Shown here in pieces: positions 16,277-34,757 of a stretch of DNA of 41,352 nt. The stretch's first letter is position 1; every line of letters starts with the position of its first letter. The DNA comes from Actinomycetes bacterium. Its GTDB lineage: Bacteria; Actinomycetota; Thermoleophilia; BMS3ABIN01. The DNA lies in the NCBI GenBank assembly GCA_021790075.1, contig JAJYIN010000002.1, positions 1 to 41,352 on the forward strand, read 5' to 3'. The position numbers and the translations under genes are program-made. The notes below the pieces were generated by a model, which was given only the letters and a program-made list of their open reading frames with translations, did not search any database and was not told the DNA's origin.

Positions 16277-17458
16277 CTAACGAGGGCCGGCGGGAGGCAT
16301 TTTCCTCCTGGCTTTCGGCTCGTAAACACAGAAAGGCTCCTCCCCCAGATAATCCCCGGTCACCTCATAGGCCCGGGCCCGGCAGCCGCCGCAGTAGCGG
16401 CGGTACTCGCAGTAGCCGCAGCGTCCATGGTAACCGTCCAGGTCACGCATCTCCCTGAAAACGGGAGAGTCGCGCCAGACATCACCAAAACTCTGTTCCT
16501 TGAGGCTGCCGCAGTTTACATCCAGGAAACCACAGATCTGGACCACGCCCTGGTATGAGATGAAGCAGAAACCCTGCCCACCCAGGCATCCCTTGCTCAT
16601 GGCGTCCATGCCGTGCGTCTCCACCGTCACCTTCTTGCCTTCGGCGTGGGCGCGCTGGCGGAGGATGCGGTAGTAATGCGGCGCGCAGGTGGGCTTGAAG
16701 TTGAGCGGCACCGTTTCCCGCTGGTCGTAGACCCAGCCCAGCGTCTCCTCGTACTGCTCGGGGGAAAGCTCCTGGTCGGCCAGTTCCTTGCCGCGGCCGG
16801 TCGGCACCAGCAGGAATGGATGGAAGGCGACCGCGCCCAGGTCGATGGCCAGCCGCAGGATGTCCGGCAGCTCGGCCAGGTTGACTTTGGTCACGGTTGT
16901 ATTAATCTGGAACTCGATGCCTGCCTTCCTGGCGGCCTCGATGCCTCTCATCACCTCGTCGAAAGCCCCGGGCACGCGGCGGAAATCGTCATGCGTCTGC
17001 GCCGTGGCGCCATCGACGCTCAAACTGATGCGGTCGATGCCGGATTCCTTGAGGCGGCGGGCATTTTCATCACTCAGGAGGGTGCCACAGGGGGACATCA
17101 CCATTTTCAGTCCCCTGTCGGTGCCGTAACGGGCTATCTCGTAGATGTTTTCCCTCAGCATGGGATCGCCGCCGGTGAGGATGACGATAGGCTTCCCGAC
17201 CGCGGCGATCTCGTCGATCACCTGGAAGCATTTCTCGGTCGAAAGTTCACCGGGGTACGGGCCCTTGTCGGCAGCGGCGCGGCAATGGCGGCAGGAAAGA
17301 TTGCAGCTGCGCGTCACCTCCCAGGCAACCAGCCGCGGCGCGGGCGGACCGCCGGGCTTGCCGCCCGGATGCCCGTGAGGCTGGCCGCCTGCACGCCCGT
17401 GTGGATGGCCGCCGGGATGACCCTGATGTTTGCCGGCGAGCCTAGCCAATCTCCTCAT
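16277..17458 (-). CDS. ahbD: Radical SAM/SPASM haem-pathway enzyme, NirJ2/AhbD-like (haem synthase). Start uncertain, possibly up to 17530
   Basis: It has the CNLSCRHC radical-SAM cluster motif and a C-terminal Cys-rich auxiliary-cluster region (CGYCEYRRYCGGCRARA). It is adjacent to AhbA/B and AhbC. The AhbC versus AhbD assignment is tentative. Confidence 0.7.
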   Translation of the reverse strand: MRRLARLAGKHQGHPGGHPHGRAGGQPHGHPGGKPGGPPAPRLVAWEVTRSCNLSCRHCRAAADKGPYPGELSTEKCFQVIDEIAAVGKPIVILTGGDPMLRENIYEIARYGTDRGLKMVMSPCGTLLSDENARRLKESGIDRISLSVDGATAQTHDDFRRVPGAFDEVMRGIEAARKAGIEFQINTTVTKVNLAELPDILRLAIDLGAVAFHPFLLVPTGRGKELADQELSPEQYEETLGWVYDQRETVPLNFKPTCAPHYYRILRQRAHAEGKKVTVETHGMDAMSKGCLGGQGFCFISYQGVVQICGFLDVNCGSLKEQSFGDVWRDSPVFREMRDLDGYHGRCGYCEYRRYCGGCRARAYEVTGDYLGEEPFCVYEPKARRKMPPAGPR

Positions 17459-18641
17459 CCGTGAGATAGCAGGCCGGGTCGGGGGCCCAGGGATCGCCAT
17501 AAACCAGGTCGGCGCGCACGCGCAGGGCACCGCCGCAGGCGTCGAACCATTTGCAGGAGCGGCAGCGGCCGTGGATATGGCCGCGCCGGTCCTTGAGCCC
17601 CGCCATCAGCGGGTCGGAAGTGTCCATCCAGATCTCGCTGAAGGGGCGCTCGCGCACGTTGCCGAAGCTGTAGTGCATCCAGAACTGGTCCGGGTGCACG
17701 TTTCCCTTGAAGTCGATGTCACCGAAGCCGACGCCCGAGCTGTAGAGGCCGCCGCCATTCCATTTCAGCAGCCGCATGACCGCCTCGGCCCGCTCCGGGG
17801 CCTCTTCCAGTAACTTCATGTAAAGGTAGATGCCGTCGACGTGGTTGTCCACGGTGAGGATATCCTTTTCCAGGCCGCGGTCATGCATGTCCCGGGTGCG
17901 GGTCAGGATGATGTCGAGGGCATCCCGGGTTTCAGCGTGGGTGAGGTCGTCGCTCTCCTTGCCCCGGCCCGAATAAACGAGGTGATAAAAGCAGGCGCGG
18001 TCGATCTCCTCCGCCTCGATGAAGTCGAAGATGCGGTGCAGGTCGGTGTAATTGTGGCGGGTCAGGGTCAGCCTGAGGCCCACCCGCTGCCCCACCGCCT
18101 TGCAGTTGCGGAAGCCGGCCATCGCCTTCTCAAAGGCTCCCTTGTGGCCCCGGAAAGCATCGTTGATGTCGCCGATGCCGTCCAGGCTGATGCCCACGTA
18201 GGTGAAGCCGAGGTCCTTGATCCGCTGGGCCACGTCGCGGGTGATCAGGGTGCCGTTGGTAGAGAGCGTCGGCCGGATGCCCAGCGAGACGGCGTGCCCG
18301 GCCAGTTCGAAGAGGTCCTTGCGCATCAGCGGCTCGCCGCCGGAGAAGAGCAGCGCCGGGATCTGAAACCGGGCCAGGTCCTCGATGAGCGTCTTGCCCT
18401 CCTCGGTGCTGAGTTCGCCCTCGTATTTCCTGGCCTCGGAATCGGTATAGCAGTGCACGCATTTCAGGTTACAGGTGCGGCTGGTGTTCCAGGCCACCAC
18501 CGGGCGCCGCTCCGAGGCCGACTTGGGGTTGCGGGGAATGTAGGGCGCCCCCTGCATCTCCTTGCCCTTGTGGCCGTGACCATACCGCAACGAGTCGGCG
18601 GGAGTGTCCCGGTCGCAGTAGAGTCGGGTGATATCGATCAT
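17442..18641 (-). CDS. ahbC: Radical SAM/SPASM haem-pathway enzyme, NirJ1/AhbC-like (Fe-coproporphyrin III synthase)
   Basis: It begins MIDITRLYCDRDTPADSLRYGHG, carries a CNLKCVHC cluster motif, and has a C-terminal CRSCKWFDACGG motif. Confidence 0.7.
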   Translation of the reverse strand: MIDITRLYCDRDTPADSLRYGHGHKGKEMQGAPYIPRNPKSASERRPVVAWNTSRTCNLKCVHCYTDSEARKYEGELSTEEGKTLIEDLARFQIPALLFSGGEPLMRKDLFELAGHAVSLGIRPTLSTNGTLITRDVAQRIKDLGFTYVGISLDGIGDINDAFRGHKGAFEKAMAGFRNCKAVGQRVGLRLTLTRHNYTDLHRIFDFIEAEEIDRACFYHLVYSGRGKESDDLTHAETRDALDIILTRTRDMHDRGLEKDILTVDNHVDGIYLYMKLLEEAPERAEAVMRLLKWNGGGLYSSGVGFGDIDFKGNVHPDQFWMHYSFGNVRERPFSEIWMDTSDPLMAGLKDRRGHIHGRCRSCKWFDACGGALRVRADLVYGDPWAPDPACYLTDEEIG

Positions 18642-18674
18642 GCTGTAACTCTTTCCTAGTTTTTTCCGGCTCCC

Positions 18675-20222
18675 TCAGGCGCCGGCGTCGCCGGTCAGCG
18701 CCTTGACCAGCCCCGGGATTGTGTACTCATCCGCCACGATGTCAACCTTCAGGCCCAGCTCCCGGGCCGTATCGGCGGTGACGGGGCCGATGCATGCAAT
18801 CGTCACACTCGCGGGCAAAAGAGAGAAGTCGAAACCGTCGAGGAGCGCTACGAAGTTTTTGACTGTGGATGAGCTTGTAAAAGTAATGATATCAATTTCA
18901 CCGGCGCTGAGCATATGTTTCATGTCACTTGCGCCCGCGTCATCGAGCATGGTTTCGTAGGCGGTGACAACCTCCACCCGGGCGCCGGCCCCTGCCAGTT
19001 TCTCGGGCAACACTTCGCGGGCCTCCCTGGCCCTGGGGATCAGCACGCGGCTGCCTTTCACGCCCAGATCGAGCAGCCCCTCGACCACCGATTCAGCCCG
19101 GTACTCGGGCGGCACGAAATCAGGTTTGAGCCCCCGGGCCTCGAGAGCCGCCGCCGTCGCCGGGCCGATCGCCCCCAGCCTGACGCCCTTGAGGGCGCGC
19201 ACGTCACCAATCCTCTCCAGGCGGGCGAAGAAGTGGTCTACGCCGTTGACGCTGGTAAAGACGATCCACTCGTAAGCAGGTTCAGCGACGGCAACGACCT
19301 TTTCCACGGCCGCGTCCAACGCCGCGTAGCCGTCAGCGGGGGGCGCCACCCGGATGGTGGGAAACTCCACCGGCACGGCTCCCGCCTGCCTCAGCGCCTC
19401 CACCAGATCGCTGGCCTGCGCCCGCGAGCGGGTGACCACTACCTTCCTGCCGAACAGGGGCCTGTCCTCGAACCAGTGCAGCTGCTCCCGCAGGGATACA
19501 ACCTCGCCGACGATGGTGATGGCGGGCGCCTTGAACCGGCGCTCTTTGACCAGCTCGACGATGTTCGACAGGGTGCCGGTAAGGGTTTCCTGCCGCTCCG
19601 TGGTCCCCCACCGGATCAGAGCTACCGGCGTTTCCGGGGAACGGCCGTTGGCCACCAGGTTCTCGACGATATAGGGAAGATTCCTGACGCCCATCAGGAA
19701 GACCAGGGTGCCGACACCGGTGGAGATCCGGTCCCACTTGATGGTGGACTCGGCCTTGGCAGGATCCTCATGGCCGGTGATGAAGGCCACGTCCGTGGTG
19801 AGGCCGCGGTGGGTCACCGGAATACCCGCGTAGGCAGGCACCGCGTATGCCGAGGAAATACCAGGCACCACCTCGAAATCAACGCCTGCCTCCCTCAGCG
19901 CCAGGGCTTCCTCACCACCACGGCCGAAGATGAAGGAATCGCCGCCCTTGAGCCGCGTTACCACCTTCCCGGCCGACCCCAGCTCCGCCAGCAGCCGGTT
20001 GATGTCCTCCTGCTGCATGGTATGGTTGCCGCCCTTCTTCCCCACATAGATGAGCTCCACGTCCGGGCGGGCATGCGCCAGCAGCTCCTTGCTGGCAAGG
20101 TAGTCATAAACGATGGTGTCGGCTTCGCGGACGCACCGGACCCCCTTGAGGGTGAACAGGCCCGGGTCGCCAGGGCCGGCGCCAACCAGGTAAACCTTTC
20201 CCTTTAAATCGCCTGCTGTCAT
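18675..20222 (-). CDS. Fused uroporphyrinogen-III C-methyltransferase / uroporphyrinogen-III synthase (CobA-HemD)
   Basis: The N-terminal half carries VYLVGAGPGDPGLFTLKG and the SUMT core. The C-terminal half of about 250 aa is HemD-like (VVVTRSRAQASDL...FTSSSTVKNF). Confidence 0.9.
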   Translation of the reverse strand: MTAGDLKGKVYLVGAGPGDPGLFTLKGVRCVREADTIVYDYLASKELLAHARPDVELIYVGKKGGNHTMQQEDINRLLAELGSAGKVVTRLKGGDSFIFGRGGEEALALREAGVDFEVVPGISSAYAVPAYAGIPVTHRGLTTDVAFITGHEDPAKAESTIKWDRISTGVGTLVFLMGVRNLPYIVENLVANGRSPETPVALIRWGTTERQETLTGTLSNIVELVKERRFKAPAITIVGEVVSLREQLHWFEDRPLFGRKVVVTRSRAQASDLVEALRQAGAVPVEFPTIRVAPPADGYAALDAAVEKVVAVAEPAYEWIVFTSVNGVDHFFARLERIGDVRALKGVRLGAIGPATAAALEARGLKPDFVPPEYRAESVVEGLLDLGVKGSRVLIPRAREAREVLPEKLAGAGARVEVVTAYETMLDDAGASDMKHMLSAGEIDIITFTSSSTVKNFVALLDGFDFSLLPASVTIACIGPVTADTARELGLKVDIVADEYTIPGLVKALTGDAGA

Positions 20223-22485: not shown

Positions 22486-23673
22486 ATGAAAGTCGCACTC
22501 GTATCTGAGTATTATTATCCTCTCCTCGGAGGAATAACCGAGCATGTTCACAACCTTGCCGTCTTCCTTGGCAGGCGGGGACATGATGTCACCGTCGTCA
22601 CCCATAATCTGAAGCCGCGCAAGCACCATCATTATCCCAGCGAGCTGGTGGACTTCCCGATAGTGCGCTTCGGCAAGGGGATGCCGATTTATTCGAACGG
22701 TTCCATTGCCCACATCACCGTGGGCAAGGGACTCTCCGGCAGCATGCGGCGCTTTTTCCAGCAGGAGCGGTTTGACGTGATCCATGCCCATTCCCCGCTC
22801 ACGCCGACGCTCCCCGTCCTGGCCCTGCGCGCCTCGAACGCCCCTGTCACCGTGGGCACGTTCCACACGTATTTCGACCGCAGCCGCAGTTACAGCCTGG
22901 TGCAGAAAAAAGCGGCTGCGCACATGAACATGATGGACGGCAAGATCGTCGTCTCGCAGGCATGCGTGGATGCTCTCTCGCGCTATTTCGAAACCGATTA
23001 CCGCGTCATCCCCAACGGGGTGGACCCCGGGTATTTCTCGCCCGACGCCCCTGTGCTTCCCGAGTTCGACGACGGTAAGCTGAATATACTGTTTGTGGGA
23101 CGGTTCGATCCCCGCAACGGCCTGCGCACGATGATCGATGCCTTCAAGATTGTGAAAAGGCAGTTCGGGAACTGCCGCCTGATCGTCGTGGGAGACGGCC
23201 CCCTGCGCCCGTATTACCGCTCCATGGTGGGGAAAAAGCTGGCTGCGGACGTTCACTTCGCCGGTCTGATCAACGGCGGGCGCCCCAATTACTACGCCTC
23301 CGCCGACGTCTACTGCACGCCGTGCACCAAGGCCTCGTTCGGCGTCGTCCTCCTGGAAGCCATGTCGTCTGCGACCCCCATCGTGGCATCCGACATCAAC
23401 GGCTACCGGCTGGTAATGGATGATGACCGGGAGGGCATCCTCGTTCCCGAACAGGACCCGGCCGCTTTCGCGGAAGCCCTGCTGCGCCTGCTGAAAGACC
23501 CGGAGCTCCGGCAGCGCATGGGCCGGGCGGGCCGCGAAAAAGTCCTGAGCACCTTTTCCTGGGAGCTGGTGGCCGCGCGCATCGAGCAGCTCTATCTGGA
23601 GCTGCTGGGCGAGAACGCCTCCGCCGGCATGCCGGACCCAGATCCGGAAAAGGTCATCGTTCTGAATGACTAA
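22486..23673 (+). CDS. GT4-family (GT-B fold) glycosyltransferase
   Basis: It begins MKVALVSEYYYPLLGGITEHV and has the C-terminal EX7E-region motif FGVVLLEAMSSATPIVASDINGY. Confidence 0.88.
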   Translation: MKVALVSEYYYPLLGGITEHVHNLAVFLGRRGHDVTVVTHNLKPRKHHHYPSELVDFPIVRFGKGMPIYSNGSIAHITVGKGLSGSMRRFFQQERFDVIHAHSPLTPTLPVLALRASNAPVTVGTFHTYFDRSRSYSLVQKKAAAHMNMMDGKIVVSQACVDALSRYFETDYRVIPNGVDPGYFSPDAPVLPEFDDGKLNILFVGRFDPRNGLRTMIDAFKIVKRQFGNCRLIVVGDGPLRPYYRSMVGKKLAADVHFAGLINGGRPNYYASADVYCTPCTKASFGVVLLEAMSSATPIVASDINGYRLVMDDDREGILVPEQDPAAFAEALLRLLKDPELRQRMGRAGREKVLSTFSWELVAARIEQLYLELLGENASAGMPDPDPEKVIVLND

Positions 23674-24478
23674 GAAGCAGGCCCTGCGGCGGCTGGCTTC
23701 CCTGACGGGTGGTCTTTTCGCCACGCAGGCCGCCGCCGCCGCCCACTGCCGGCGCCACGGCCGGCCTTGCCTCGGTAAGTTGATCATGTCAACCGGCGTC
23801 GCTGCCGACACCCTCCTCCTTTACGCCGTTCTGGTTCCAAACTTCCCTCTGCTGGGCAAGGTTTACCACCATGGGAACCGGAATGGAAACAAAGTGGCGC
23901 TCACCTTTGACGACGGCCCCCGGCCGCCCTACACCGGTCAGGTGCTGGACGCGCTGGGCGCCGCCGGCGTGCGCGCCACGTTTTTTGTCCTGGGTGAGAA
24001 CGCGCGCCGGTATCCGGAAGCCGTGCGGCGGATCGAGGCTGAAGGCCACCGGGTGGCAAATCACGGCATGGACCATGATATTCTCATGTTTGCCAGCGGA
24101 GCAGCGGCCCTGTCGCAGGTCATGGGCGCCGAGGCGGCGCTTCGGCAGGCAGGCGTACGCGATCCGGCGCTGCTGTTCCGGGCCCCGCATGGATGGCTGA
24201 GCCTTCCCGCTCACCGGGCAATCACCCGCCGAGGGTACCGGGTGGTGGGTTGGACCAAGGGCGTCTGGGACACGGCCAACCCGGGGGCGGACAGGATCGT
24301 GTCCCGGACCAGCGAGGTGCTGGCGCCGGGGAGCATCCTGCTGCTTCACGACGGCTGGGGAGGCATCTCCGCCGAAGACCGCTCCCAGACAGCGGCGGCA
24401 CTCCCGGCTATCATTGGGGAGGCCCGTTCCCGGGGGCTTGAATTTATCACCGTTGAAGAGATGATGCGGGAGGCCTGA
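23666..24478 (+). CDS. Polysaccharide deacetylase (CE4/NodB family) with an N-terminal membrane anchor
   Basis: NodB motifs VALTFDDGP, ANHGMDH and LLHD are present. The ATG overlaps the GT4 stop by 8 nt. An alternative start lies at about 23786. Confidence 0.85.
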   Translation: MTKKQALRRLASLTGGLFATQAAAAAHCRRHGRPCLGKLIMSTGVAADTLLLYAVLVPNFPLLGKVYHHGNRNGNKVALTFDDGPRPPYTGQVLDALGAAGVRATFFVLGENARRYPEAVRRIEAEGHRVANHGMDHDILMFASGAAALSQVMGAEAALRQAGVRDPALLFRAPHGWLSLPAHRAITRRGYRVVGWTKGVWDTANPGADRIVSRTSEVLAPGSILLLHDGWGGISAEDRSQTAAALPAIIGEARSRGLEFITVEEMMREA

Positions 24479-25650
24479 TGCAGGGAACTGGCAGTGCTGG
24501 GAAAAAACGGCTGCGGCTTTTCCTGCGGTGGTTTTTCCGCATCGCGGTCCTCCTGCTGGTCTTTTATGTTCTCAGGTACCGGACCGAGTGGGATGAGTTC
24601 GGCGCTGCCTTTGCCGGTGTTTCCTGGTTCTTTGTCTTCCTGGCGATCCTGGCCAATCTCGCGTCGATCATGCTCAAGGCCGCCAGCTGGAAAGTGATCT
24701 TCGATTTCACTTTTGGATTCAGGGGCCGCTGGCGCGACCTCACCTCGGCGATCATGATCGGCTTTCTGGTGAACGCGCTGGTGCCGGCCCGCATCGGCGA
24801 GCTGGCGCGGGCTTACGTTATCACCAGGCGGCAGGCCATCCGCGGCCATTTCCTCTCGCGGTCGACGGCTTTTGGCACCGTCGTGCTCGAGCGGGTTTTT
24901 GACGGCGTGGCAATGGCTCTGCTCGTCCTGTTCGGCATCACCCGGCTGAACCTGCCCGCCTGGGCTGACCGGGGAGCCATCGCCATACTGATCATCGCCG
25001 CCGCCTTCGGCGCCGCCGTCATCTTCCTGGAGGCAAAAAGGGAGAAGCTGAGGAAGGGAGCCGAGGCGGCCAAGGCGGCCACCCAGGAAAACCATCCCTG
25101 GTGGCGCAAGCAGCTCACCCGGCTGCACGGGGTCGTGGCCCGGTTCAGCGAGGGGCAGCAGGTCCTGAGGAATCCGTTGAGGATCGTGGTCGTCTTTTGC
25201 ACGACCTCGCTCTCGTGGACTTCGCAGCTGGTCGCCGTCTACCTGTCGGTCAGGGCCTTCCATCTGGTCAATCCCAGCGGGAACAGCATCGGCATGTCCG
25301 GAGCGCTCCTGCTGCTCATCCTGATCAACATCGCCGGCGCCTTGCCGGCCACCCCCGGCAATGTCGGCATCTTTCAGCTGGCGACCGTGATTCCGCTGAG
25401 TGTCACCTTCGGGATACCGGAATCCACCGCTCTCGCCTTTTCCATCGGCCTGCAGGCAATCGAGGGGTCGATCGGGCTGGGCCTGGGCAGCCTCTTCCTG
25501 CTCCGGGAGGGCCTTAGCTTCAAGGAAGTCCGGAGCGAAAGCCTGCGGGATAGGGAAGAGATCGAGGAAAAAGGGGAGGAGATACAGGAGGAGATCGAGG
25601 AAGAGATAGCAGGGGAGATAAAGGAAGAGGCTGGGAAACGGGAGAAATAA
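24478..25650 (+). CDS. Lysylphosphatidylglycerol-synthase transmembrane-domain protein (UPF0104, MprF flippase-like) with an acidic repeat tail
   Basis: It has about 8 TM helices and the motif VPARIGELARAYV. The start overlaps the upstream stop as TGATG. The tail reads REEIEEKGEEIQEEIEEEIAGEIKEEAGKREK. Confidence 0.8.
   Translation: MQGTGSAGKKRLRLFLRWFFRIAVLLLVFYVLRYRTEWDEFGAAFAGVSWFFVFLAILANLASIMLKAASWKVIFDFTFGFRGRWRDLTSAIMIGFLVNALVPARIGELARAYVITRRQAIRGHFLSRSTAFGTVVLERVFDGVAMALLVLFGITRLNLPAWADRGAIAILIIAAAFGAAVIFLEAKREKLRKGAEAAKAATQENHPWWRKQLTRLHGVVARFSEGQQVLRNPLRIVVVFCTTSLSWTSQLVAVYLSVRAFHLVNPSGNSIGMSGALLLLILINIAGALPATPGNVGIFQLATVIPLSVTFGIPESTALAFSIGLQAIEGSIGLGLGSLFLLREGLSFKEVRSESLRDREEIEEKGEEIQEEIEEEIAGEIKEEAGKREK
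25545..25650 (+). repeat. Polypurine tract of about 100 nt, low complexity (GAGGAGAT/GAAGAGAT reiterations)
   Basis: The plus strand here is almost exclusively A/G. It encodes the EEI-periodic tail of the flippase-like protein. Confidence 0.7.
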
Positions 25651-25683
25651 GGAAGCCGGGGCTCGAAATCCGTCCTGTCCTGT

Positions 25684-25712
25684 TTGATTTAGGATAGCTA
25701 TTCGCTTACTAT
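25684..25712 (+). promoter_or_regulatory. Candidate promoter for the dehydratase-like operon
   Basis: TTGATT (25684-25689), a 17-nt spacer and TACTAT (25707-25712) sit in a locally AT-rich intergenic patch. Confidence 0.4.
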
Positions 25713-25845
25713 CACTTAATCTTTTGCATCGAAATTGTTTAGGCGCACCTGAAATGGGAATTTTCTTTGCACGAGCATCCGGGCCGGGCGCCCGCTGGTG
25801 CGGGCGGCGCCTGCGTCCTTCGACCATCGAGAATGCCATCTGCTT

Positions 25846-26838
25846 ATGCGTGTAGGAATACCCAGATCACTGCTGTACTACAAATACCTGCCCTTCTGGA
25901 AGACTTTCCTGGCCGGTTGTGGCGCCGACGTGGAAACCTCCCCCCTGACGAACAAGAAGATCCTTTCCTGGGGGGTCGAGGTGGCGGAAAACGAGCTGTG
26001 CGTGCCGGTGAAGGCCTTTTACGGGCATTGCATGGCGCTCCGCGACCGCGTGGACGCTCTGTTCGTGCCCCGGGTCGTCAGCGTCGAAGAGCGCGCCTAT
26101 ACCTGCCCCAAGTTCCTGGGCCTGCCTGACATGATCGCCGCAGTGGCAAACCAGCTGGAGCTGCCACCGCTGCTCACGCCCAAACTGAGCCAGAGGGAAA
26201 AGCCCAGCGAATTCAAGTGGGCGCTGATCAATTTTGCCCAGGACGAGTTCGGCCTCAGCAAGCTTGACGCTGTGGCGGCGCTGGACGCCGCCCGCCGGGC
26301 CCAGAAACGCTACCAGGAAAGCCTGGTGGCCGGGCACAAACCTCTGGATCTGCTCCCCGCCAGCCGCCTCAACCGCACCCGCTGGCGGCCCGAACGGACG
26401 GAAGGAGCCAAGCGCATCGGCCTCCTGGGGCACCCGTACAATATCTACGATGGTTACATCACCCAGAACCTGATCGCCCGCCTGGAGGAGACGGGCGCCG
26501 AGCTGGTGGTGCCCGAGATGACAGACCACCACGTTTTGATGAACGCCGCAACCGACGTTCCCAAGCAGCTCTACTGGACTTATGAAAAGGAGATCATGGG
26601 AGCCATCAACCACTGGACCGAAAACAGGCTGGTTGACGGAGTGGTATACGTGCTGGCTTTCGCCTGCGGCCCCGACTCGCTCGTCCAGGTGCTGATCGAA
26701 CACCGGGCCCGCCAGTACAAGGTGCCGCTGATGGCGCTGACCATCGATGAGCACAGCGGCGAGGCCGGCCTCGTCACCAGAATCGAGGCGTTCACCGACA
26801 TGTTGATGCGCAGGAAGAAGCCGGCGGCTGTAGCGTGA
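25846..26838 (+). CDS. Acyl-CoA dehydratase activase-related protein (DUF2229-type, N-terminal module)
   Basis: MRVGIPRSLLYYKYLPFWKTFLAGCG...ELCVPVKAFYGH...YTCPKFLGLPDM is the typical DUF2229 signature. I chose the start at the internal ATG that begins MRVGIPR. Confidence 0.8.
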   Translation: MRVGIPRSLLYYKYLPFWKTFLAGCGADVETSPLTNKKILSWGVEVAENELCVPVKAFYGHCMALRDRVDALFVPRVVSVEERAYTCPKFLGLPDMIAAVANQLELPPLLTPKLSQREKPSEFKWALINFAQDEFGLSKLDAVAALDAARRAQKRYQESLVAGHKPLDLLPASRLNRTRWRPERTEGAKRIGLLGHPYNIYDGYITQNLIARLEETGAELVVPEMTDHHVLMNAATDVPKQLYWTYEKEIMGAINHWTENRLVDGVVYVLAFACGPDSLVQVLIEHRARQYKVPLMALTIDEHSGEAGLVTRIEAFTDMLMRRKKPAAVA

Positions 26839-28055
26839 ACGCCCTGGCCAGGATACCCGGCAGGCGCCGCGCCGGCGCCGGCGGCGACATCAAGGTGAGC
26901 GCTCCCCACATGGGCAACATGCACCTGTTGCTGGAAGACTTGTTCGGGCGGCTGGGCTGTGAGTACGTGAAGCCGCCCCCCTCATCGATAAAAACCCTGC
27001 AGATAGGCGCAAAACATAGCCCTGAATTCGCCTGTCTGCCGTTGAAGATCAACATCGGCAACTTCATCCAGGCGCTGGACCGGGGAGCAAATACGCTGAC
27101 CATGGCCGGCGGCCACGGCCCCTGCCGCTTTGGTTATTACGGCATCGTCGAGGAGCGCATCCTGCGGGATCTGGGCTACCAGTTCGATTTCCTCATGCTG
27201 GAACCGTTCAGCGACGGCGCCCGCGCTTTTTACCGCACATTCGCCGCGCTGTCCCCGGGGCTGAGCATCCGGAAGCTGTGGAAGATCCTCAAGATGTCTT
27301 TCTCCAAAGGGCGTTCCTTTGACCACCTGCGGAAACGGGCACTGCAGGTGCGGGCCTACGAGGTCAACCGGGGCGACACCACCAAAGCGCTGAAGGCGGC
27401 GGAAGAACTGCTGGCCGGGGCCGTGTCCCCCGAGGAGATCGAGGCGGCTTCAGCCGAGGCCATGGGCATGCTCGACGGCGTCCGCCAGGACCGGGAGCGG
27501 GACGTGCTCAAGGTGGGCATCGTCGGCGAGTTCTACCTCCTGCTGGAGCCGTTCAGCAATTACGACCTGGAAGAGATACTGGGGCACGAAGGCGTCTATC
27601 TGGAGCGCACAGTCTGGGTGACTGACTGGATCGCCCCCCGGCGGGACAACAAGATTTACGGTTTCCCCAAGAAGCTGATCGAGGAAAAGGCGGCCCCGTT
27701 CCTGAACCACAACGTGGGCGGTGAAGGCCGCGAGACAGTGGGCAGCACCGTGCTCTTCGCCGAACGCGGTTTTGATGGCGTCATCCAGCTGCTGCCCTTC
27801 GGCTGCATGCCGGAGAACATCGCCACCAGCATCATTCCCCGGGTCCAGCAGCAGCATGACATCCCGGTGCTGACGCTGGCCTTTGACGAGCAGACCGGCC
27901 GCGCCGGCCTGGTCACCCGCCTGGAAGCCTTCCTCGACCTGTTGATGGCGCGCCGCGGCAGCAGGCTGGTTTCGGCTACGGGAAGCCGGGAAAAAATCAC
28001 TCAGGCTGTGACCCCCGAGTGTGCTGCCTGTGCAGCAAGAGGCGGCTGTAAATGA
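26835..28055 (+). CDS. 2-hydroxyacyl-CoA dehydratase / BCR-family related protein (second DUF2229/HGD-D-like module)
   Basis: PHMGNMHLLLEDLF...SPEFACLPLKINIGNFIQAL...GGHGPCRFGYYG...LPFGCMPE motifs are present. A GTG start overlaps the upstream stop as GTGA. Confidence 0.78.
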   Translation: MNALARIPGRRRAGAGGDIKVSAPHMGNMHLLLEDLFGRLGCEYVKPPPSSIKTLQIGAKHSPEFACLPLKINIGNFIQALDRGANTLTMAGGHGPCRFGYYGIVEERILRDLGYQFDFLMLEPFSDGARAFYRTFAALSPGLSIRKLWKILKMSFSKGRSFDHLRKRALQVRAYEVNRGDTTKALKAAEELLAGAVSPEEIEAASAEAMGMLDGVRQDRERDVLKVGIVGEFYLLLEPFSNYDLEEILGHEGVYLERTVWVTDWIAPRRDNKIYGFPKKLIEEKAAPFLNHNVGGEGRETVGSTVLFAERGFDGVIQLLPFGCMPENIATSIIPRVQQQHDIPVLTLAFDEQTGRAGLVTRLEAFLDLLMARRGSRLVSATGSREKITQAVTPECAACAARGGCK

Positions 28056-28106
28056 CGGGCGCCCTCAAGTATACGCCAGGGCGTGTCTCTGCCAATGGAG
28101 GGAAAA

Positions 28107-29123
28107 ATGACTGAAGCGACAACCAGCTATCTCGGCATCGATGTCGGGTCTGTGAGCACAAATCTGGTGATCCTGGACGAGCACGCCGCCGTGGTGGCCG
28201 CCATTTACCGCCGCACCCAGGGCCAGCCCATCAGGGCGGTCCAGGAGGGCATGAAGGAACTGCTGGAGCTGATCGCCGGCCGGAAGATAGAGATCCAGGG
28301 TGTGGGGGCGACCGGCAGCGCCCGGCACCTGACCGGCGTCATCGTGGGCGCCGACGTGGTCAAGAACGAGATCACCGCGCACGCGGTGGCCGCCTCACAG
28401 GTGGTACCCGATGTCAATACCGTCCTTGAGATCGGCGGCCAGGATTCCAAGCTGATCATCCTGCGCGACGGCGTCGTCACCGACTTCGCCATGAACTCTG
28501 TCTGCGCCGCCGGCACCGGCTCCTTCCTTGACCACCAGTCGGCGCGGCTGGGCATCCCCATCGAAGAGTTCGGCAGCTATGCCGTCAAGTCGGAAAGCCC
28601 GGCCCACATCGCCGGCCGCTGCTCCGTGTTCGCCGAATCGGACATGATCCACAAGCAGCAGGTAGGCGTGGCCACCCCCGATATCATCTATGGCCTCTGC
28701 CACGCCCTGGTGCGCAACTACCTGAACAATCTTGGCAAGGGCAAGGAGCTGCTGGAACCGATGGTGTTCCAGGGAGGCGTGGCCGCCAACGCAGGCATGA
28801 AACGCTCTTTTGAGGACGCCCTGGGAGTCGAGGTCGTGGTGCCCACCTACCATCACGTCATGGGAGCTATCGGCAGCGCCATCCTGGCCATGGAGCTGGA
28901 ACTGGAGCCGGGAGAAACCGCCTTCAAAGGATTCTCGATGAGCGACCTCGTTTACGAGACGTCCACGTTTGTATGTGACGGCTGCTCGAATACCTGCGAG
29001 GTCGTGCGCATCAAGGTGGAAGGCAAGACGCTCGCCCGCTGGGGCGGCCGCTGCGGCAAATGGGAGATGCAAGACGTTGCCGGCCGGGGAGGCCGAAGGG
29101 CGCCGGCAGCGAGCCGCGGCTGA
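28107..29123 (+). CDS. BadF/BadG/BcrA/BcrD-type ATPase (CoA-substrate-specific enzyme activase, HgdC-like)
   Basis: SYLGIDVGSVSTNLVILDE, LEIGGQDSK, CAAGTGSFLD and VFQGGVAAN motifs are present. I chose the start at the ATG at 28107, 4 nt after GGAGGG; the ORF is open from 28083. Confidence 0.88.
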   Translation: MTEATTSYLGIDVGSVSTNLVILDEHAAVVAAIYRRTQGQPIRAVQEGMKELLELIAGRKIEIQGVGATGSARHLTGVIVGADVVKNEITAHAVAASQVVPDVNTVLEIGGQDSKLIILRDGVVTDFAMNSVCAAGTGSFLDHQSARLGIPIEEFGSYAVKSESPAHIAGRCSVFAESDMIHKQQVGVATPDIIYGLCHALVRNYLNNLGKGKELLEPMVFQGGVAANAGMKRSFEDALGVEVVVPTYHHVMGAIGSAILAMELELEPGETAFKGFSMSDLVYETSTFVCDGCSNTCEVVRIKVEGKTLARWGGRCGKWEMQDVAGRGGRRAPAASRG

Positions 29124-29181: not shown

Positions 29182-29688
29182 TCAGGCATTCCGCTGCCAG
29201 GCGCCGAAGGCAGCGGCGGCCATCCACACGAAGCCCCAGATCCCGTAGGCGCTCAGGGCGAATCTGAAGGCGAAAGCGGTCAGCGTGAAGCCGGTCACAT
29301 ACGCCCAGATGCCGAAAAAGACCCCCAGCACCGCACACGCTGCGGCCCACGCGGCCAGGCGGGTGCCGTGGTAACGGCCGCTGGCGCGGGAAACCGCCTC
29401 GCCGACGCCGGCCCCCAGCGCGAAGGCGATGATGATGGCGAAAAAGCTGATCATCGAGATCACCAGCGCAAACAGGTAACCGCCGAAAACGGCGGCGACG
29501 ATGCCGATGACCCCCGTCAGCAGCAGCCGGTCCGGTTTCAGCCTTGCCAGCGCCGATTTGGGCATGCGGGCGCAGCTGGGGCACTTGGCGCCGACAGCTG
29601 TGTAAACCATGCAGTCCGGACAGATAGGATCGCCGCAAGCGCTGCAGGTTACCCGGGTTTCTACGGAAGGATGATTGACGCAATACAT
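29182..29688 (-). CDS. Membrane protein with an N-terminal B-box-like zinc ribbon
   Basis: CVNHP...CSACGDPICPDCMVY...CPSC is followed by about 4 TM helices. Confidence 0.55.
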   Translation of the reverse strand: MYCVNHPSVETRVTCSACGDPICPDCMVYTAVGAKCPSCARMPKSALARLKPDRLLLTGVIGIVAAVFGGYLFALVISMISFFAIIIAFALGAGVGEAVSRASGRYHGTRLAAWAAACAVLGVFFGIWAYVTGFTLTAFAFRFALSAYGIWGFVWMAAAAFGAWQRNA

Positions 29689-32618: not shown

Positions 32619-33638
32619 TCAAGGAGTGGTTGCCGCCGTGGTGGCCAGCCCCCCGGCCGGCGAGGTCGACGCCCCTCCGCCCACGGGCGTGGTCGCGGGC
32701 GCATAACCGTCGGCGTACTCTATCTTGTGCCGGGCCATGGCATCCGACAGCCATTTGTCAAACACGGGCCGCTGCTTTTGCAGAAGCAGTTGTTGTTTAA
32801 GACCATCCTTCACCTCAGCAAAAGTCACCTGGTGCGGCGGGGTGATCTTGTCCACCCGAATGATGTGGTAACCGTATTGCGTCTTTACCGGCCCGGAAGT
32901 CTGCCCGGCCTGGAGCTTATCCATCGCCGCCTCGAACTCGGGAACCATGCCGCTGTTCTTGCTCGGAATCTCCGCCTGGTTCGTGGTGGGATTGTAGAGA
33001 AGCCCGCCCTTGTCCTTGCTGCCGGGATCGATGGAATACTTTGAGGCGAGCGCGGCGAAATCGGCGCCGGCGTCCAGCTGCGCTTTCACATCATTTGCGG
33101 TTTTTTCATCGGCTACGAGGATGTGGCGCACCTGGCGGGTCTCCGGGGCCTGGAAGCTGGGGTCGGACGCATGCTGATTATAGTAGTCCTGCACTTCCTG
33201 ATCGGAAACGGTGACATTCTTGGTGACCTGCTCCAGTACCTTCCGGAAATAGAGATTGTTGCGCACGAAATTCTTGTACCAGTCGAGGTCGATGCCGGCC
33301 TTGTTGAGCGCGTCCTGGAACTGGCTGTCGCCGCCGGCCGTCTGTTTTTGCTTGTCGATGGTGGAGTTGACCTCGTCATCGCTGACGGTAATGTTCATGG
33401 CCGGAGCTTCCAGCGCCAGCACCTCGTTCACCACAAGGATGTTCACGATGGAATCCTGCGGAGCCGGACTGGATGCCGACTGGCTATTGACAAGTTTGGT
33501 CATCTTGTCCAAGTCAGACTTGGTGATGTCATGGCCGTCGACGGTGGCGACGTTATCGCTGGAGCCGCAGCCCGCTGCCAGCAGGACGGCGGCGGTGACG
33601 AGCAGAGCGATGGCAAGTAGCGAGATCTTTTTTATCAT
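32619..33638 (-). CDS. Lipoprotein peptidyl-prolyl isomerase, parvulin type (PrsA/SurA-like), paralogue 1
   Basis: It has the lipobox LLAAGC, a SurA-N-like chaperone region, and a parvulin core (VRHILV...GPVKTQYGYHIIRV). Confidence 0.85.
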   Translation of the reverse strand: MIKKISLLAIALLVTAAVLLAAGCGSSDNVATVDGHDITKSDLDKMTKLVNSQSASSPAPQDSIVNILVVNEVLALEAPAMNITVSDDEVNSTIDKQKQTAGGDSQFQDALNKAGIDLDWYKNFVRNNLYFRKVLEQVTKNVTVSDQEVQDYYNQHASDPSFQAPETRQVRHILVADEKTANDVKAQLDAGADFAALASKYSIDPGSKDKGGLLYNPTTNQAEIPSKNSGMVPEFEAAMDKLQAGQTSGPVKTQYGYHIIRVDKITPPHQVTFAEVKDGLKQQLLLQKQRPVFDKWLSDAMARHKIEYADGYAPATTPVGGGASTSPAGGLATTAATTP

Positions 33639-33728
33639 CAGGTACCCCTAGTACATTTGGCGCCGTGACGGCGGCGCGCCGCTCAACCGGGCCGGAGGAC
33701 ATTGCGTTTATTTATCCATGGAGTGGTT

Positions 33729-34757
33729 CTATGGAGTGGTTGCTCCCTGTGTCTGACCGGGGGCCTGACCGGTGGCGCCTGTACCTGTTCCAGTGGTTCC
33801 GGTCTCGGTCGGCGCGTAATCGTCGCCGTACTGAACCTTGTAATTACCCTTGATGCTGTCATACCAGTTGTTAAATGCGGTTTGCTTGTTGGTCTGCTCC
33901 AGTTGCGACTTGATGTCTTCCTTGACCTGGCCGAAGGGCTGCACGCCCGCCGGGATGATCTGCGTGACGCGGATGATGTAGTAGCCGCTCTTTGTCTTCA
34001 CCGGCCCGGACGTCTGGCCGGCCTGCAGCTGATCCATGGCCGACTCGAACTCGGCGGGATAACCGCTGTTCTGGGAAGGGATCTCGCCCAGGTCGCCGCC
34101 GTTGTTCTTGCTGGAGGCGTCGGTGGAGTACTGCTTGGCCAGAGTGGCGAAGTCGCCGCCCGCGTCCAGTTGCGCTTTGACTTGATTTGCGGTAGCCTGA
34201 TCGGCGACCAGGATGGCCGAGACCTTGCGCGTCTCCGGTTTCTGGAACAGAGCCTGGTTGCTGTTGTAGTAGTTCTGGGCGTCCTGATCGCTGACCGGCG
34301 GCACGTCCTTGGTCACTTGGTCGCTCAGCTTCTGGGCAATGAGGCTGGTGCGGATGAGGTCCTTGAGACGGTCGAGCGTGAGGTTGCGTGAAGTAAGGGT
34401 CTGATTGAACTTGTCCTCGCCGCCGCTCATCTGCTTCAGCTGGTCGATCTGCTGATTGATCTCATCGTCGGTGACGGTGATTCCCCTCTTGTCGGCCTCG
34501 AACAAAACGATCTGCTGCTCGACCAGGCTCTGAACCACCTGCTTCTGGAGCTCCTTGTACTGGGGAGAATCCTGCGACGGAAAACCCTGATCGCCGTACT
34601 GTGACTTGAGATCCTCGATCCGCTTGTCCAGGTCCTCCTTGGTGATCACCTTGTCGTTGACCTGGGCCACCGCGCTTTTCGGCAGCCCGCCGCAGCCGAT
34701 CCACACGGGCACCAGGGCAAGCACGAACAAGACTGCGATCATTTTTTTAATCATCAA
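33729..34757 (-). CDS. Lipoprotein peptidyl-prolyl isomerase, parvulin type (PrsA/SurA-like), paralogue 2
   Basis: It has the lipobox VWIGC and a parvulin core (VSAILV...GPVKTKSGYYIIRV). It is collinear with paralogue 1. Confidence 0.85.
   Translation of the reverse strand: MMIKKMIAVLFVLALVPVWIGCGGLPKSAVAQVNDKVITKEDLDKRIEDLKSQYGDQGFPSQDSPQYKELQKQVVQSLVEQQIVLFEADKRGITVTDDEINQQIDQLKQMSGGEDKFNQTLTSRNLTLDRLKDLIRTSLIAQKLSDQVTKDVPPVSDQDAQNYYNSNQALFQKPETRKVSAILVADQATANQVKAQLDAGGDFATLAKQYSTDASSKNNGGDLGEIPSQNSGYPAEFESAMDQLQAGQTSGPVKTKSGYYIIRVTQIIPAGVQPFGQVKEDIKSQLEQTNKQTAFNNWYDSIKGNYKVQYGDDYAPTETGTTGTGTGATGQAPGQTQGATTP

What the first reader, a model, noticed from the sequence alone, without database searches (positions are those of the whole stretch)
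25846..29123. Three-gene split 2-hydroxyacyl-CoA dehydratase/BCR-like system next to lipid genes: candidate PlsA/PlsR-type ether-lipid (plasmalogen or alkyl-ether) synthase
Seen in the sequence: two DUF2229/HGD-D-like modules are coupled by a GTGA overlap. A single BcrAD/BadFG ATPase activase follows 27-51 nt downstream, depending on which start is used. No acyl-CoA metabolic genes lie nearby, and the neighbours are membrane-lipid genes.

Anaerobic plasmalogen synthase (PlsA/PlsR of Clostridium perfringens) belongs to this ATP-dependent radical enzyme family. So do the related glycerol ester reductases proposed for bacterial ether lipids. In those systems the protein usually appears as one or two very large polypeptides with two ATPase domains.

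Here the architecture is split three ways and has only one ATPase domain, which would be an unusual variant.

Inference: this is an ether-lipid-forming reductase acting on the membrane lipids made or modified by the adjacent operon.
Basis: partly seen in the sequence, partly recalled or inferred. Interest (0 to 1): 0.6.

Follow-up and report, generated by a model that had tools for sequence, protein, structure and literature searches.

The report
Split PlsA-like iron-sulfur reductase cassette
Three adjacent genes encode a split, single-ATPase relative of the oxygen-sensitive bacterial enzymes that turn ester membrane lipids into ether lipids; this form is common in anaerobes but has never been tested, so its ether-lipid role here is a reasonable inference, not a result.

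Summary
RedA (25846-26838), RedB (26835-28055, GTGA overlap) and one BcrAD/BadFG ATPase, Act (28107-29123), are real genes and the only such system in this 88%-complete Actinomycetota MAG.

The reading is partly supported. The cassette belongs to the DUF2229 branch that holds PlsA/PlsR/Ger. RedA keeps the three cluster cysteines and other residues of PlsA-type proteins, and Act is an "Act2"-type ATPase sharing PlsA's C-terminal four-Cys motif.

- The split architecture is not unusual. It defines a large, strongly supported sister clade (100/100) of all ATPase-fused forms, found in more than 500 species genomes.
- The link to the GT4/deacetylase/flippase genes is synteny within one family. Other lineages place the cassette beside NfnAB/ApbE, spoVA or a cardiolipin synthase.
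- No member of the split clade has been tested.

Indirect support comes from Fervidicola, Moorella and Thermoanaerobacter lineages, whose species produce plasmalogens. The genomes searched carry only split cassettes.

The best reading, at about 0.5, is an ATP-driven reductase that converts lipid esters to ethers. Earlier notes of this scan recorded the same cassette on other DNA.

The parts
25846..26838 (+). RedA: first reductase/dehydratase-like subunit (DUF2229 + C-terminal HGD-D), 330 aa. Probable [4Fe-4S] ligands are C52, C87 and C274.
   Evidence: PF09989 at 4.2e-47 over the full length. C52, C87 and C274 are invariant in 80 split homologues and in PlsA-type proteins. AlphaFold pLDDT is 92.7, with the HAD/BCR/DCCP fold at TM 0.5-0.58.
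26835..28055 (+). RedB: second, paralogous reductase-like subunit (PlsR-like module), 406 aa, coupled to RedA by a GTGA overlap. Probable cluster ligands are C67, C97 and C324.
   Evidence: Weak PF09989 and PF06050 matches. It aligns co-linearly with the module after RedA in fused or PlsA-PlsR relatives. The Cys-rich tail (C396, C399, C405) is not conserved.
28107..29123 (+). Act: single BcrAD/BadFG-type ATPase (activator), 338 aa from ATG 28107; alternative starts are GTG 28083 and ATG 28095. It has two cluster-bridging Cys (C133, C172) and a C-terminal C290-x2-C293-x3-C297...C316 module.
   Evidence: PF01869 at 6.6e-44 and TIGR00241 at 5.5e-55. Closest solved chains are MbdQ, HgdC and HadI. 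The Cys are 99-100% conserved. The Cys4 motif is shared with Act2 and absent from Act1 of Listeria and Collinsella PlsA-type proteins. It is the only PF01869 gene in the genome.
25651..25845 (+). Intergenic gap before RedA, holding a conserved CTTAnTATCAC motif (window 25705-25717). It is probably the cassette's own promoter (-10 region) or an operator.
   Evidence: The motif is kept in 4 of 6 genera aligned, while the rest of the gap diverges. The consensus scan found no sigma-70 site or terminator, and there is no Rfam match. Its function is inferred.
22486..25650 (+). Context only: GT4 glycosyltransferase (22486-23673), CE4 polysaccharide deacetylase (23666-24478) and LPG_synthase_TM flippase-like protein (24478-25650). 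This is a HexSDF-like trio. A functional link to the cassette is not shown.
   Evidence: Pfam and NCBIfam matches. The trio is adjacent to the cassette only in the window's family and is partly lost there.

Best explanation
The three genes encode a split member of the DUF2229 (PlsA/PlsR/Ger-like) branch of the ATP-dependent BCR/HAD radical-enzyme superfamily.

Shown:
- RedA and RedB are paralogous catalytic subunits, each with three invariant cysteines, as expected for a [4Fe-4S] cluster with one open iron site.
- Act is an Act2-type ASKHA ATPase with the two cysteines that bridge a [4Fe-4S] cluster between two ATPase protomers, plus a family-specific Cys4 module.

Inferred:
- Act forms a homodimer that takes an electron from reduced ferredoxin or flavodoxin.
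- On ATP hydrolysis, Act injects that electron into a RedA/RedB heterodimer.
- The heterodimer reduces, and perhaps dehydrates, the carbonyl of an acyl ester on a membrane glycerolipid. The product would be a vinyl-ether (plasmalogen) or alkyl-ether lipid, as PlsA/PlsR and Ger do.

The cassette is probably transcribed on its own. It need not act on the product of the neighbouring GT4/deacetylase/flippase genes.
For: Homology and anatomy:
- Domain content and order of the Red modules match PlsA-PlsR and fused relatives.
- The ligand Cys and H61, Y198, D202, W244, D301 and E302 are shared with Listeria and Collinsella PlsA-type proteins.
- Act shares the Cys4 motif of PlsA Act2.
- RedA has the HAD/BCR/DCCP fold.
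- It is the only PF09989 locus and the only PF01869 gene in the genome, so Act is dedicated to RedA/RedB.

Function of known relatives:
- The only tested DUF2229 enzymes I found in the held papers are lipid ester reductases: PlsA/PlsR in PMC12838417 and Ger in PMC13159169.

Indirect functional support:
- Fervidicola ferrireducens, Moorella mulderi and 11 Thermoanaerobacter/Caldanaerobacter-like genomes carry only split cassettes and no fused form.
- F. ferrireducens, M. thermoacetica and T. wiegelii nevertheless make plasmalogen-derived DMAs and/or alkyl glycerol ethers (PMC13274423 Table S1).
- Caldanaerobacter subterraneus shows no DMA, and one of its split RedB genes has TGG changed to TGA at a conserved Trp.
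- A PLD-type cardiolipin synthase lies directly upstream of the cassette in 4 Alkaliphilus-group loci and nearby in a fifth.
- In 151 Actinomycetota genomes sampled, 27 have split only, 12 fused only and 5 both.
Against: - No member of the split clade has been tested.
- The clade is a sister of all ATPase-fused forms in the tree, not nested among them (100/100). RedA is only 23% identical to Listeria PlsA.
- K89 and K240 are invariant in the split clade but differ in PlsA-type proteins.
- Many Bacillota carry two split cassettes, and some carry a fused one as well. Paralogues therefore probably differ in substrate or product.
- Relations between the window's Actinomycetota clade and the Bacillota paralogues are unresolved. 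The lipid correlations cannot be transferred to this clade specifically.
- Most genomic contexts (NfnAB/ApbE, spoVA-lysA, miscellaneous) say nothing about lipids.
- The lipid and genome data come partly from different strains or species.
- The organism is uncultured and its lipids are unknown.
- PMC13274423 itself calls the role of activation-domain-less PlsA homologues unclear.
Confidence: 0.5

Rival explanations
1. The enzyme machinery is the same (ATP-driven, low-potential Fe-S reductase), but the substrate or product is not an ester-to-ether conversion. It could be another reduced lipid, such as fatty alcohols or precursors of other reduced-acyl lipids. It could also be a small non-lipid molecule, as with double-cubane cluster proteins, whose natural substrate is unknown.
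For: - The split clade is separate, with its own invariant residues K89 and K240.
- There are several paralogues per genome.
- RedA and Act are conserved at 80-87% between genera, similar to enolase and higher than the lipid-gene neighbours at 60-79%.
- The cassette recurs beside NfnAB-like and ApbE redox genes, in two gene arrangements, in Aquicultor-like Actinomycetota.
- The Bacillota that carry it also make abundant 1-alkanols, wax esters and N-glyceroyl alkylamines.
- The best structural matches include DCCP.
Against: - The NfnAB link is equally expected for any ferredoxin-dependent activator.
- The DCCP equivalog model scores 21.9 bits against a cut-off of 350.
- For the alkylamine idea: Deinococcus radiodurans, a producer of such lipids (my own knowledge), does not ring PF09989 in the controls. 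Thermus rings PF09989 only weakly and has no PF01869 hit.
- The plasmalogen producers whose lineages carry only split cassettes need some enzyme for that step.
Confidence: 0.3
2. One reading: the cassette works with the adjacent GT4/deacetylase/flippase genes, converting the amino-glycolipid they make, or its diacylglycerol precursor, into an ether glycolipid.
For: - All six genes are co-directional.
- The adjacency holds in 7 of 8 genera of the family.
- A lipid gene (cardiolipin synthase) also precedes the cassette in an unrelated lineage.
Against: - The whole 20-kb neighbourhood is syntenic in the family, so adjacency carries little weight.
- G004 has the cassette without GT4 and flippase beside it, and four genera lack the deacetylase.
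- A 195-nt gap with a conserved -10-like motif separates the two units.
- Outside the family, the cassette is never next to such a trio in 87 loci.
Confidence: 0.12
3. A classical 2-hydroxyacyl-CoA dehydratase or benzoyl-CoA-reductase-type enzyme of fermentation or aromatic degradation.
For: - Weak C-terminal HGD-D matches.
- Superfamily fold.
- RefSeq names such genes '2-hydroxyacyl-CoA dehydratase'.
Against: - Identity to HadBC, BzdNO and MbdON is only 12-17%, detectable by fold alone.
- HadC and double-cubane equivalog scores are 17-22 bits against cut-offs of 350-700.
- No CoA-transferase, 2-hydroxyacid dehydrogenase, Etf or Bcr partner genes occur here or recur in 87 loci.
Confidence: 0.03

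Closest known systems
PlsA/PlsR anaerobic plasmalogen synthase (Clostridium perfringens CPE1194/1195; single-gene PlsA in Enterococcus, Lactococcus and Bifidobacterium)
   Same: - Same module set: a DUF2229 first reductase module, a second paralogous module (PlsR-like) and BcrAD/BadFG ATPase.
- Same three Cys ligands and several other invariant residues in RedA.
- Act carries the Cys4 motif of PlsA's second ATPase domain.
- The two-gene split of C. perfringens shows the Red modules can be separate polypeptides.
   Different: - One ATPase instead of two, encoded last and separately, against the N-terminal tandem fusion of PlsA.
- All three parts are separate.
- RedA is about 23% identical to a Listeria PlsA orthologue and about 30-33% to PlsA-PlsR-type proteins of sister families.
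- The cassette forms a separate clade (100/100).
- K89 and K240 are clade-specific.
- Activity is untested.
Ger, glycerol ester reductase (Thermotoga maritima Tmari_0479; Desulfatibacillum alkenivorans SHJ90043)
   Same: Same superfamily branch, with the B-B-D(H)-D(H) domain vocabulary. It is oxygen-sensitive and acts on intact glycerolipids. Sequence alone cannot separate Ger from PlsA (PMC13274423).
   Different: Ger is a single polypeptide of about 1400-1500 aa with two ATPase domains. I could not place the verified sequences in my tree because they were not obtainable with these tools.
2-hydroxyacyl-CoA dehydratases with a homodimeric activator (HgdAB/HgdC, HadBC/HadI)
   Same: Three-gene logic: two paralogous [4Fe-4S] subunits, each with three Cys, plus one ATPase gene whose product dimerises around a bridging cluster. 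Same fold.
   Different: Only 12-17% identity. There are no CoA-ester pathway genes. Act has an extra Cys4 module that is absent from HgdC and HadI, which are 260-276 aa.
Double-cubane cluster protein DCCP/DCCP-R (PDB 6ENO, 7YYL)
   Same: Best Foldseek matches. It is an ATP-driven reductase with a separate homodimeric ATPase and no known natural substrate.
   Different: DCCP is a homodimer of one subunit type. The NCBIfam equivalog model is not met (21.9 against 350 bits).

Membership tests
PlsA/PlsR/Ger lipid ester reductases (DUF2229 branch of the BCR/HAD superfamily) | First reduction module matching PF09989 (DUF2229) with three conserved cluster cysteines | tested here: met
   PF09989 at 4.2e-47 over the full length. 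C52, C87 and C274 are invariant and shared with PlsA-type proteins.
PlsA/PlsR/Ger lipid ester reductases (DUF2229 branch of the BCR/HAD superfamily) | Second, paralogous reduction/dehydration module (PlsR-like) directly after the first | tested here: met
   RedB overlaps RedA by GTGA. It aligns co-linearly with the second module of PlsA-PlsR-type and fused relatives.
PlsA/PlsR/Ger lipid ester reductases (DUF2229 branch of the BCR/HAD superfamily) | Two tandem BcrAD/BadFG activation domains fused N-terminally to the first reduction module (BBD) | tested here: not met
   There is one ATPase, on a separate gene downstream, and it is the only PF01869 gene in the genome.
PlsA/PlsR/Ger lipid ester reductases (DUF2229 branch of the BCR/HAD superfamily) | ATPase with two cluster-bridging Cys and the Act2-type C-terminal CxxCSNxC...C motif | tested here: met
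   C133 and C172, plus C290, C293, C297 and C316, are conserved at 99-100%. The motif is present in Act2 and absent from Act1 of Listeria, Collinsella and other PlsA-type proteins.
PlsA/PlsR/Ger lipid ester reductases (DUF2229 branch of the BCR/HAD superfamily) | Phylogenetic placement inside the clade that holds characterised enzymes or their orthologues | tested here: not met
   Split RedA proteins form their own clade (100/100), opposite all ATPase-fused forms including the Listeria and Collinsella PlsA orthologues. The verified sequences themselves were not available.
PlsA/PlsR/Ger lipid ester reductases (DUF2229 branch of the BCR/HAD superfamily) | Converts an sn-1 acyl ester of a glycerolipid into a vinyl or alkyl ether under anoxic conditions | not testable with these tools
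   There is only indirect support. Fervidicola ferrireducens, and the Moorella and Thermoanaerobacter lineages searched, have only split cassettes, and species of these lineages produce plasmalogens or ethers.
2-hydroxyacyl-CoA dehydratases (HgdAB/HadBC + activator) | Full-length HGD-D (PF06050) or equivalog match, with CoA-transferase and 2-hydroxyacid dehydrogenase partners | tested here: not met
   Only the C-terminal 60-110 residues match PF06050, at 29 and 26 bits. The HadC equivalog scores 16.9 against 700 bits. There are no partner genes.
Double-cubane cluster proteins (DCCP) | NF040772 equivalog score and a homodimeric single-subunit architecture | tested here: not met
   21.9 bits against a cut-off of 350. 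The cassette has two different subunits. The fold is similar, at TM about 0.55.

The most novel reading that the evidence does not exclude
The split RedA-RedB-Act clade may hold the unassigned plasmalogen and alkyl-ether synthases of the many anaerobes that lack a fused PlsA/Ger. These include Thermoanaerobacter, Fervidicola, Moorella and deep-branching anaerobic Actinomycetota such as this one. Its paralogues would then make different reduced-acyl lipids. In this family the cassette would supply ether-linked cores for the amino-glycolipid made by the neighbouring HexSDF-like genes.
Probability: 0.15. Interest if true: 0.7.

Novelty: new variant of a known kind. Interest (0 to 1): 0.42.

Why it matters
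Bacterial ether lipids and plasmalogens matter for the "lipid divide", for brGDGT palaeoclimate proxies and for gut-microbe lipid signalling. Gene-based surveys currently look for fused PlsA/Ger.

If the split, single-ATPase clade does the same chemistry, those surveys miss a large share of potential producers: more than 500 species genomes, and whole families of anaerobic Actinomycetota and Clostridia. A recent paper explicitly leaves the role of activation-domain-less PlsA homologues open.

If the clade does something else, it is a widespread and highly conserved ATP-driven low-potential reductase with an unknown substrate.

The window itself adds little beyond one more member with a lineage-specific lipid-gene neighbourhood.

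Tried and rejected
Ideas rejected:
- **N-glyceroyl alkylamine lipids.** I considered this because the Bacillota that carry the cassette make them and the neighbours resemble a GlcNAc/GlcN lipid module. I rejected it as the leading idea. The Deinococcus control lacks PF09989. Thermus rings it only weakly and has no PF01869 hit. Bale et al. 2025 was not held.
- **TGA in the Caldanaerobacter RedB as selenocysteine.** Rejected, because the aligned residue is a conserved Trp.
- **"Type II" orthology between the window's clade and Fervidicola_C8/Moorella_C18.** The quick tree suggested it at SH-aLRT 90, but the careful tree did not hold it.

Searches that gave nothing:
- The promoter/terminator consensus scan found nothing in the gap.
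- Rfam gave only chance-level hits.
- Sequence search of the PDB found no relative of RedA or RedB.
A 12-sequence alignment worked.
- Neighbours of Bacillota "type II" loci were uninformative: Fur, TPR, a ZIP transporter, a lysine aminomutase-like protein and a kinase, judged by eye.

Sources not available:
- Jackson et al. 2021 and the supplement of the Science Advances paper were not held.
- Table S7 of PMC13274423 was cut from the stored file.
- I could not obtain the verified PlsA/PlsR, E. faecalis PlsA or Ger sequences. Listeria and Collinsella orthologues from mislabelled "plasmid" records served as anchors.
Full report
**1. Observation**

The + strand carries six co-directional genes:

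| Gene | Coordinates |
|---|---|
| GT4 glycosyltransferase | 22486-23673 |
| CE4 polysaccharide deacetylase | 23666-24478 |
| LPG_synthase_TM flippase-like protein | 24478-25650 |
| RedA | 25846-26838 |
| RedB | 26835-28055 |
| Act | 28083/28095/28107-29123 |

A 195-nt gap separates the flippase-like gene from RedA.

- RedA matches PF09989 over its full length (4e-47), with a C-terminal HGD-D match.
- RedB matches both families weakly.
- Act matches PF01869 (7e-44) and TIGR00241 (5.5e-55).
- ATG 28107 has GGAGGG just before it.
- The flanks hold SurE, a HAD hydrolase, CobA/HemD and radical-SAM genes on one side. Enolase, MazG, SurA-like PPIases and Mfd lie on the other. None is an acyl-CoA gene.

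**2. Organism and uniqueness**

- The window lies in a 1.97-Mb MAG of 233 contigs, 88% complete.
- The closest relatives are labelled Thermoleophilia, Gaiellales, Actinomycetes or Actinomycetota bacterium.
- The genome has one DUF2229 locus and one BcrAD/BadFG ATPase. Act is therefore dedicated to RedA/RedB.

**3. Conservation and context**

All 23 genomes of the family carry the cassette, with RedA and Act at 80-87% identity. The whole 20-kb neighbourhood is syntenic there. Even so, the deacetylase is missing in four of the eight genera examined. In G004 the GT4 and flippase genes are absent beside the cassette.

The gap before RedA keeps a CTTAnTATCAC motif in four genera, while the rest of the gap diverges. 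I read this as the cassette's own promoter or operator. That is inference.

I clustered the neighbours across 87 related loci:
- RedA+RedB occur in 87 of 87 loci and Act in 76 of 87. The three genes are the conserved unit.
- No second ATPase and no CoA-transferase recurs.

The contexts differ by lineage:

| Lineage | Neighbours |
|---|---|
| Aquicultor-like Actinomycetota | NfnAB-like genes and ApbE, in two gene arrangements |
| Spore-forming Clostridia | dacF-spoIIA-sigF-spoVA upstream, lysA downstream |
| Alkaliphilus group (4 loci, nearby in a fifth) | PLD-type cardiolipin synthase directly upstream |
| Other loci | no recurrent neighbours; seven Bacillota loci examined by eye |

The lipid neighbourhood of the window is thus lineage-specific. 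One independent lipid association exists elsewhere.

**4. Family placement**

Searching every 50%-identity cluster representative with RedA gave 447 hits at 1e-30 or better. The best 150 are all about 300-380 aa (split) or 690-770 aa (RedA-RedB fusions). None carries an ATPase-sized extension. In species genomes, 537 stretches encode a relative. Many are in cultured Clostridia such as Caldanaerobacter, Moorella, Pelotomaculum, Desulfofundulus, Tepidanaerobacter, Alkaliphilus and Fervidicola.

Sister families of the window's class instead carry two other forms:
- an Act-Act-RedA protein of about 1050-1150 aa followed by a separate RedB. [quoted passage not shown]
- single fused proteins of about 1500 aa.

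For anchors I used PlsA orthologues from Listeria monocytogenes and Collinsella aerofaciens, taken from mislabelled "plasmid" records. Listeria is reported to have active pls orthologues (PMC9702350).

A careful maximum-likelihood tree of 77 RedA modules gave these results:
- All split forms fall in one clade, opposite all ATPase-fused forms (100/100).
- Inside the split clade, an Actinomycetota clade (100/99) holds the window.
- Three Bacillota paralogue groups are also supported (98/93, 96/83, 99/100).
- The relations among these four groups are unresolved.

**5. Anatomy bearing on mechanism**

- RedA has three invariant Cys (C52, C87, C274). RedB has three at equivalent positions (C67, C97, C324).
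- The RedA ligands and H61, Y198, D202, W244, D301 and E302 are shared with PlsA-type proteins. K89 and K240 are specific to the split clade.
- The RedA model (pLDDT 92.7) matches DCCP, HadBC, BzdNO and MbdON at TM 0.5-0.58 and 12-17% identity. Sequence search alone finds no solved relative.
- Act has the two bridging-cluster Cys (C133, C172) and a C-terminal CxxCSNxC...C motif. That motif is present in the second ATPase domain of PlsA-type proteins and absent from the first.
- A single Act2-type ATPase forming a homodimer is mechanistically sufficient, as with HgdC (established knowledge; closest solved chains).

**6. Functional evidence from elsewhere**

The only tested DUF2229 enzymes I found in the held papers are lipid ester reductases (PMC12838417, PMC13159169). 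PMC13274423 notes that Bacillota carry additional PlsA homologues without an activation domain and calls their role unclear.

Its Table S1 lists these lipids:

| Species | DMAs | Other reduced-acyl lipids |
|---|---|---|
| Fervidicola ferrireducens | yes | a glycerol monoalkyl ether, N-glyceroyl alkylamines, 1-alkanols |
| Thermoanaerobacter wiegelii | yes | N-glyceroyl alkylamines, 1-alkanols |
| Moorella thermoacetica | yes | a dialkyl glycerol ether, N-glyceroyl alkylamines |
| Caldanaerobacter subterraneus | none listed | alkanols, wax esters, alkylamines |

On the genome side:
- F. ferrireducens, M. mulderi, Tepidanaerobacter and C. subterraneus each have two split cassettes and no fused form.
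- Eleven Thermoanaerobacter/Caldanaerobacter-like genomes show the same pattern.
- Nine other genomes of that family have a fused 1443-aa protein plus one split cassette.
- In C. subterraneus DSM 13054, one RedB carries TGG changed to TGA at a Trp conserved in all Thermoanaerobacter orthologues.

These facts fit split cassettes being the plasmalogen or ether synthases of these organisms. The evidence is limited. It rests on few taxa, the strains partly differ between genome and lipid data, and it concerns paralogue groups whose relation to the window's clade is unresolved.

In 151 Actinomycetota genomes sampled, 27 have split only, 12 fused only, 5 both and 107 neither. The distribution is mostly, but not strictly, complementary.

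**7. Rivals**

- **Classical acyl-CoA dehydratase or reductase.** Excluded in practice.
- **N-glyceroyl alkylamine synthesis.** Disfavoured by the Deinococcus and Thermus controls.
- **Different, unknown substrate for the same machinery.** This remains the main rival, at about 0.3.
- **Functional coupling to the neighbouring HexSDF-like trio.** Possible but weakly supported, at about 0.12.

**8. Verdict**

The homology is right. "Unusual" is wrong. The neighbourhood argument is weak. The function is plausible but untested.
- This is a new variant of a known kind: an uncharacterised split subfamily.
- Earlier notes of this scan recorded the same cassette on other DNA. One follow-up (e1-899649) reached the same reading.

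Noticed in passing
window 22486-25650: GT4 glycosyltransferase, CE4 deacetylase and LPG_synthase_TM flippase-like genes are translationally coupled, forming a HexSDF-like amino-glycolipid trio. Within the family the deacetylase is missing in 4 of 8 genera. One genus lacks GT4 and flippase at this site.
   Followed up: partly
window 25705-25717: A CTTACTATCACTT motif sits in the gap before RedA. It is conserved as CTTAnTATCAC in four genera. In G003 it is preceded by a TTTGCC-N7-GGCAAA inverted repeat.
   Followed up: partly
window 29182-29688 (- strand): A 168-aa ORF lies convergent to Act. It is conserved at 59-69% identity across the family and has no family match, apart from a sub-threshold B-box zinc-finger hit at its N-terminus.
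   Followed up: partly
window 32619-34757 (- strand): Two tandem SurA-N plus PPIC rotamase genes. Relatives such as G007 and G001 show only one at this site, so the window has a local duplication.
   Followed up: no
L137 (Caldanaerobacter subterraneus DSM 13054, G041:C10): RedB of one of its two split cassettes is interrupted by TGA where all Thermoanaerobacter orthologues have Trp (TGG). The species is reported without plasmalogen-derived DMAs.
   Followed up: partly
L033-L039, L045-L053: In Aquicultor-like Actinomycetota the cassette lies between the dnaK-grpE-dnaJ-hspR-clpB genes and an NfnAB-like pair. ApbE lies divergently upstream in seven Actinomycetota loci (L036, L046-L048, L050, L055). 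L036 has the Nfn pair in the opposite orientation. This suggests an electron-supply link.
   Followed up: partly
L059-L110 (about 20 Clostridia loci): The cassette sits directly after spoVAC-AD-AE-(AF) and before a trpB-like gene, lysA, an M50 protease and trpS, all co-directional. This hints at forespore expression of one paralogue group.
   Followed up: partly
L074, L075, L082, L114, L117: A PLD-type (2x PLDc) cardiolipin-synthase-like gene lies directly upstream of the cassette in L074, L075, L082 and L114. In L117 two copies lie a few genes downstream. All are Alkaliphilus-group genomes.
   Followed up: partly
window 17442-20222 (- strand): A radical-SAM/SPASM gene lies next to a CobA-HemD fusion. 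In relatives a second radical-SAM paralogue follows. The arrangement looks like part of a sirohaem-dependent (Ahb-type) haem pathway.
   Followed up: no
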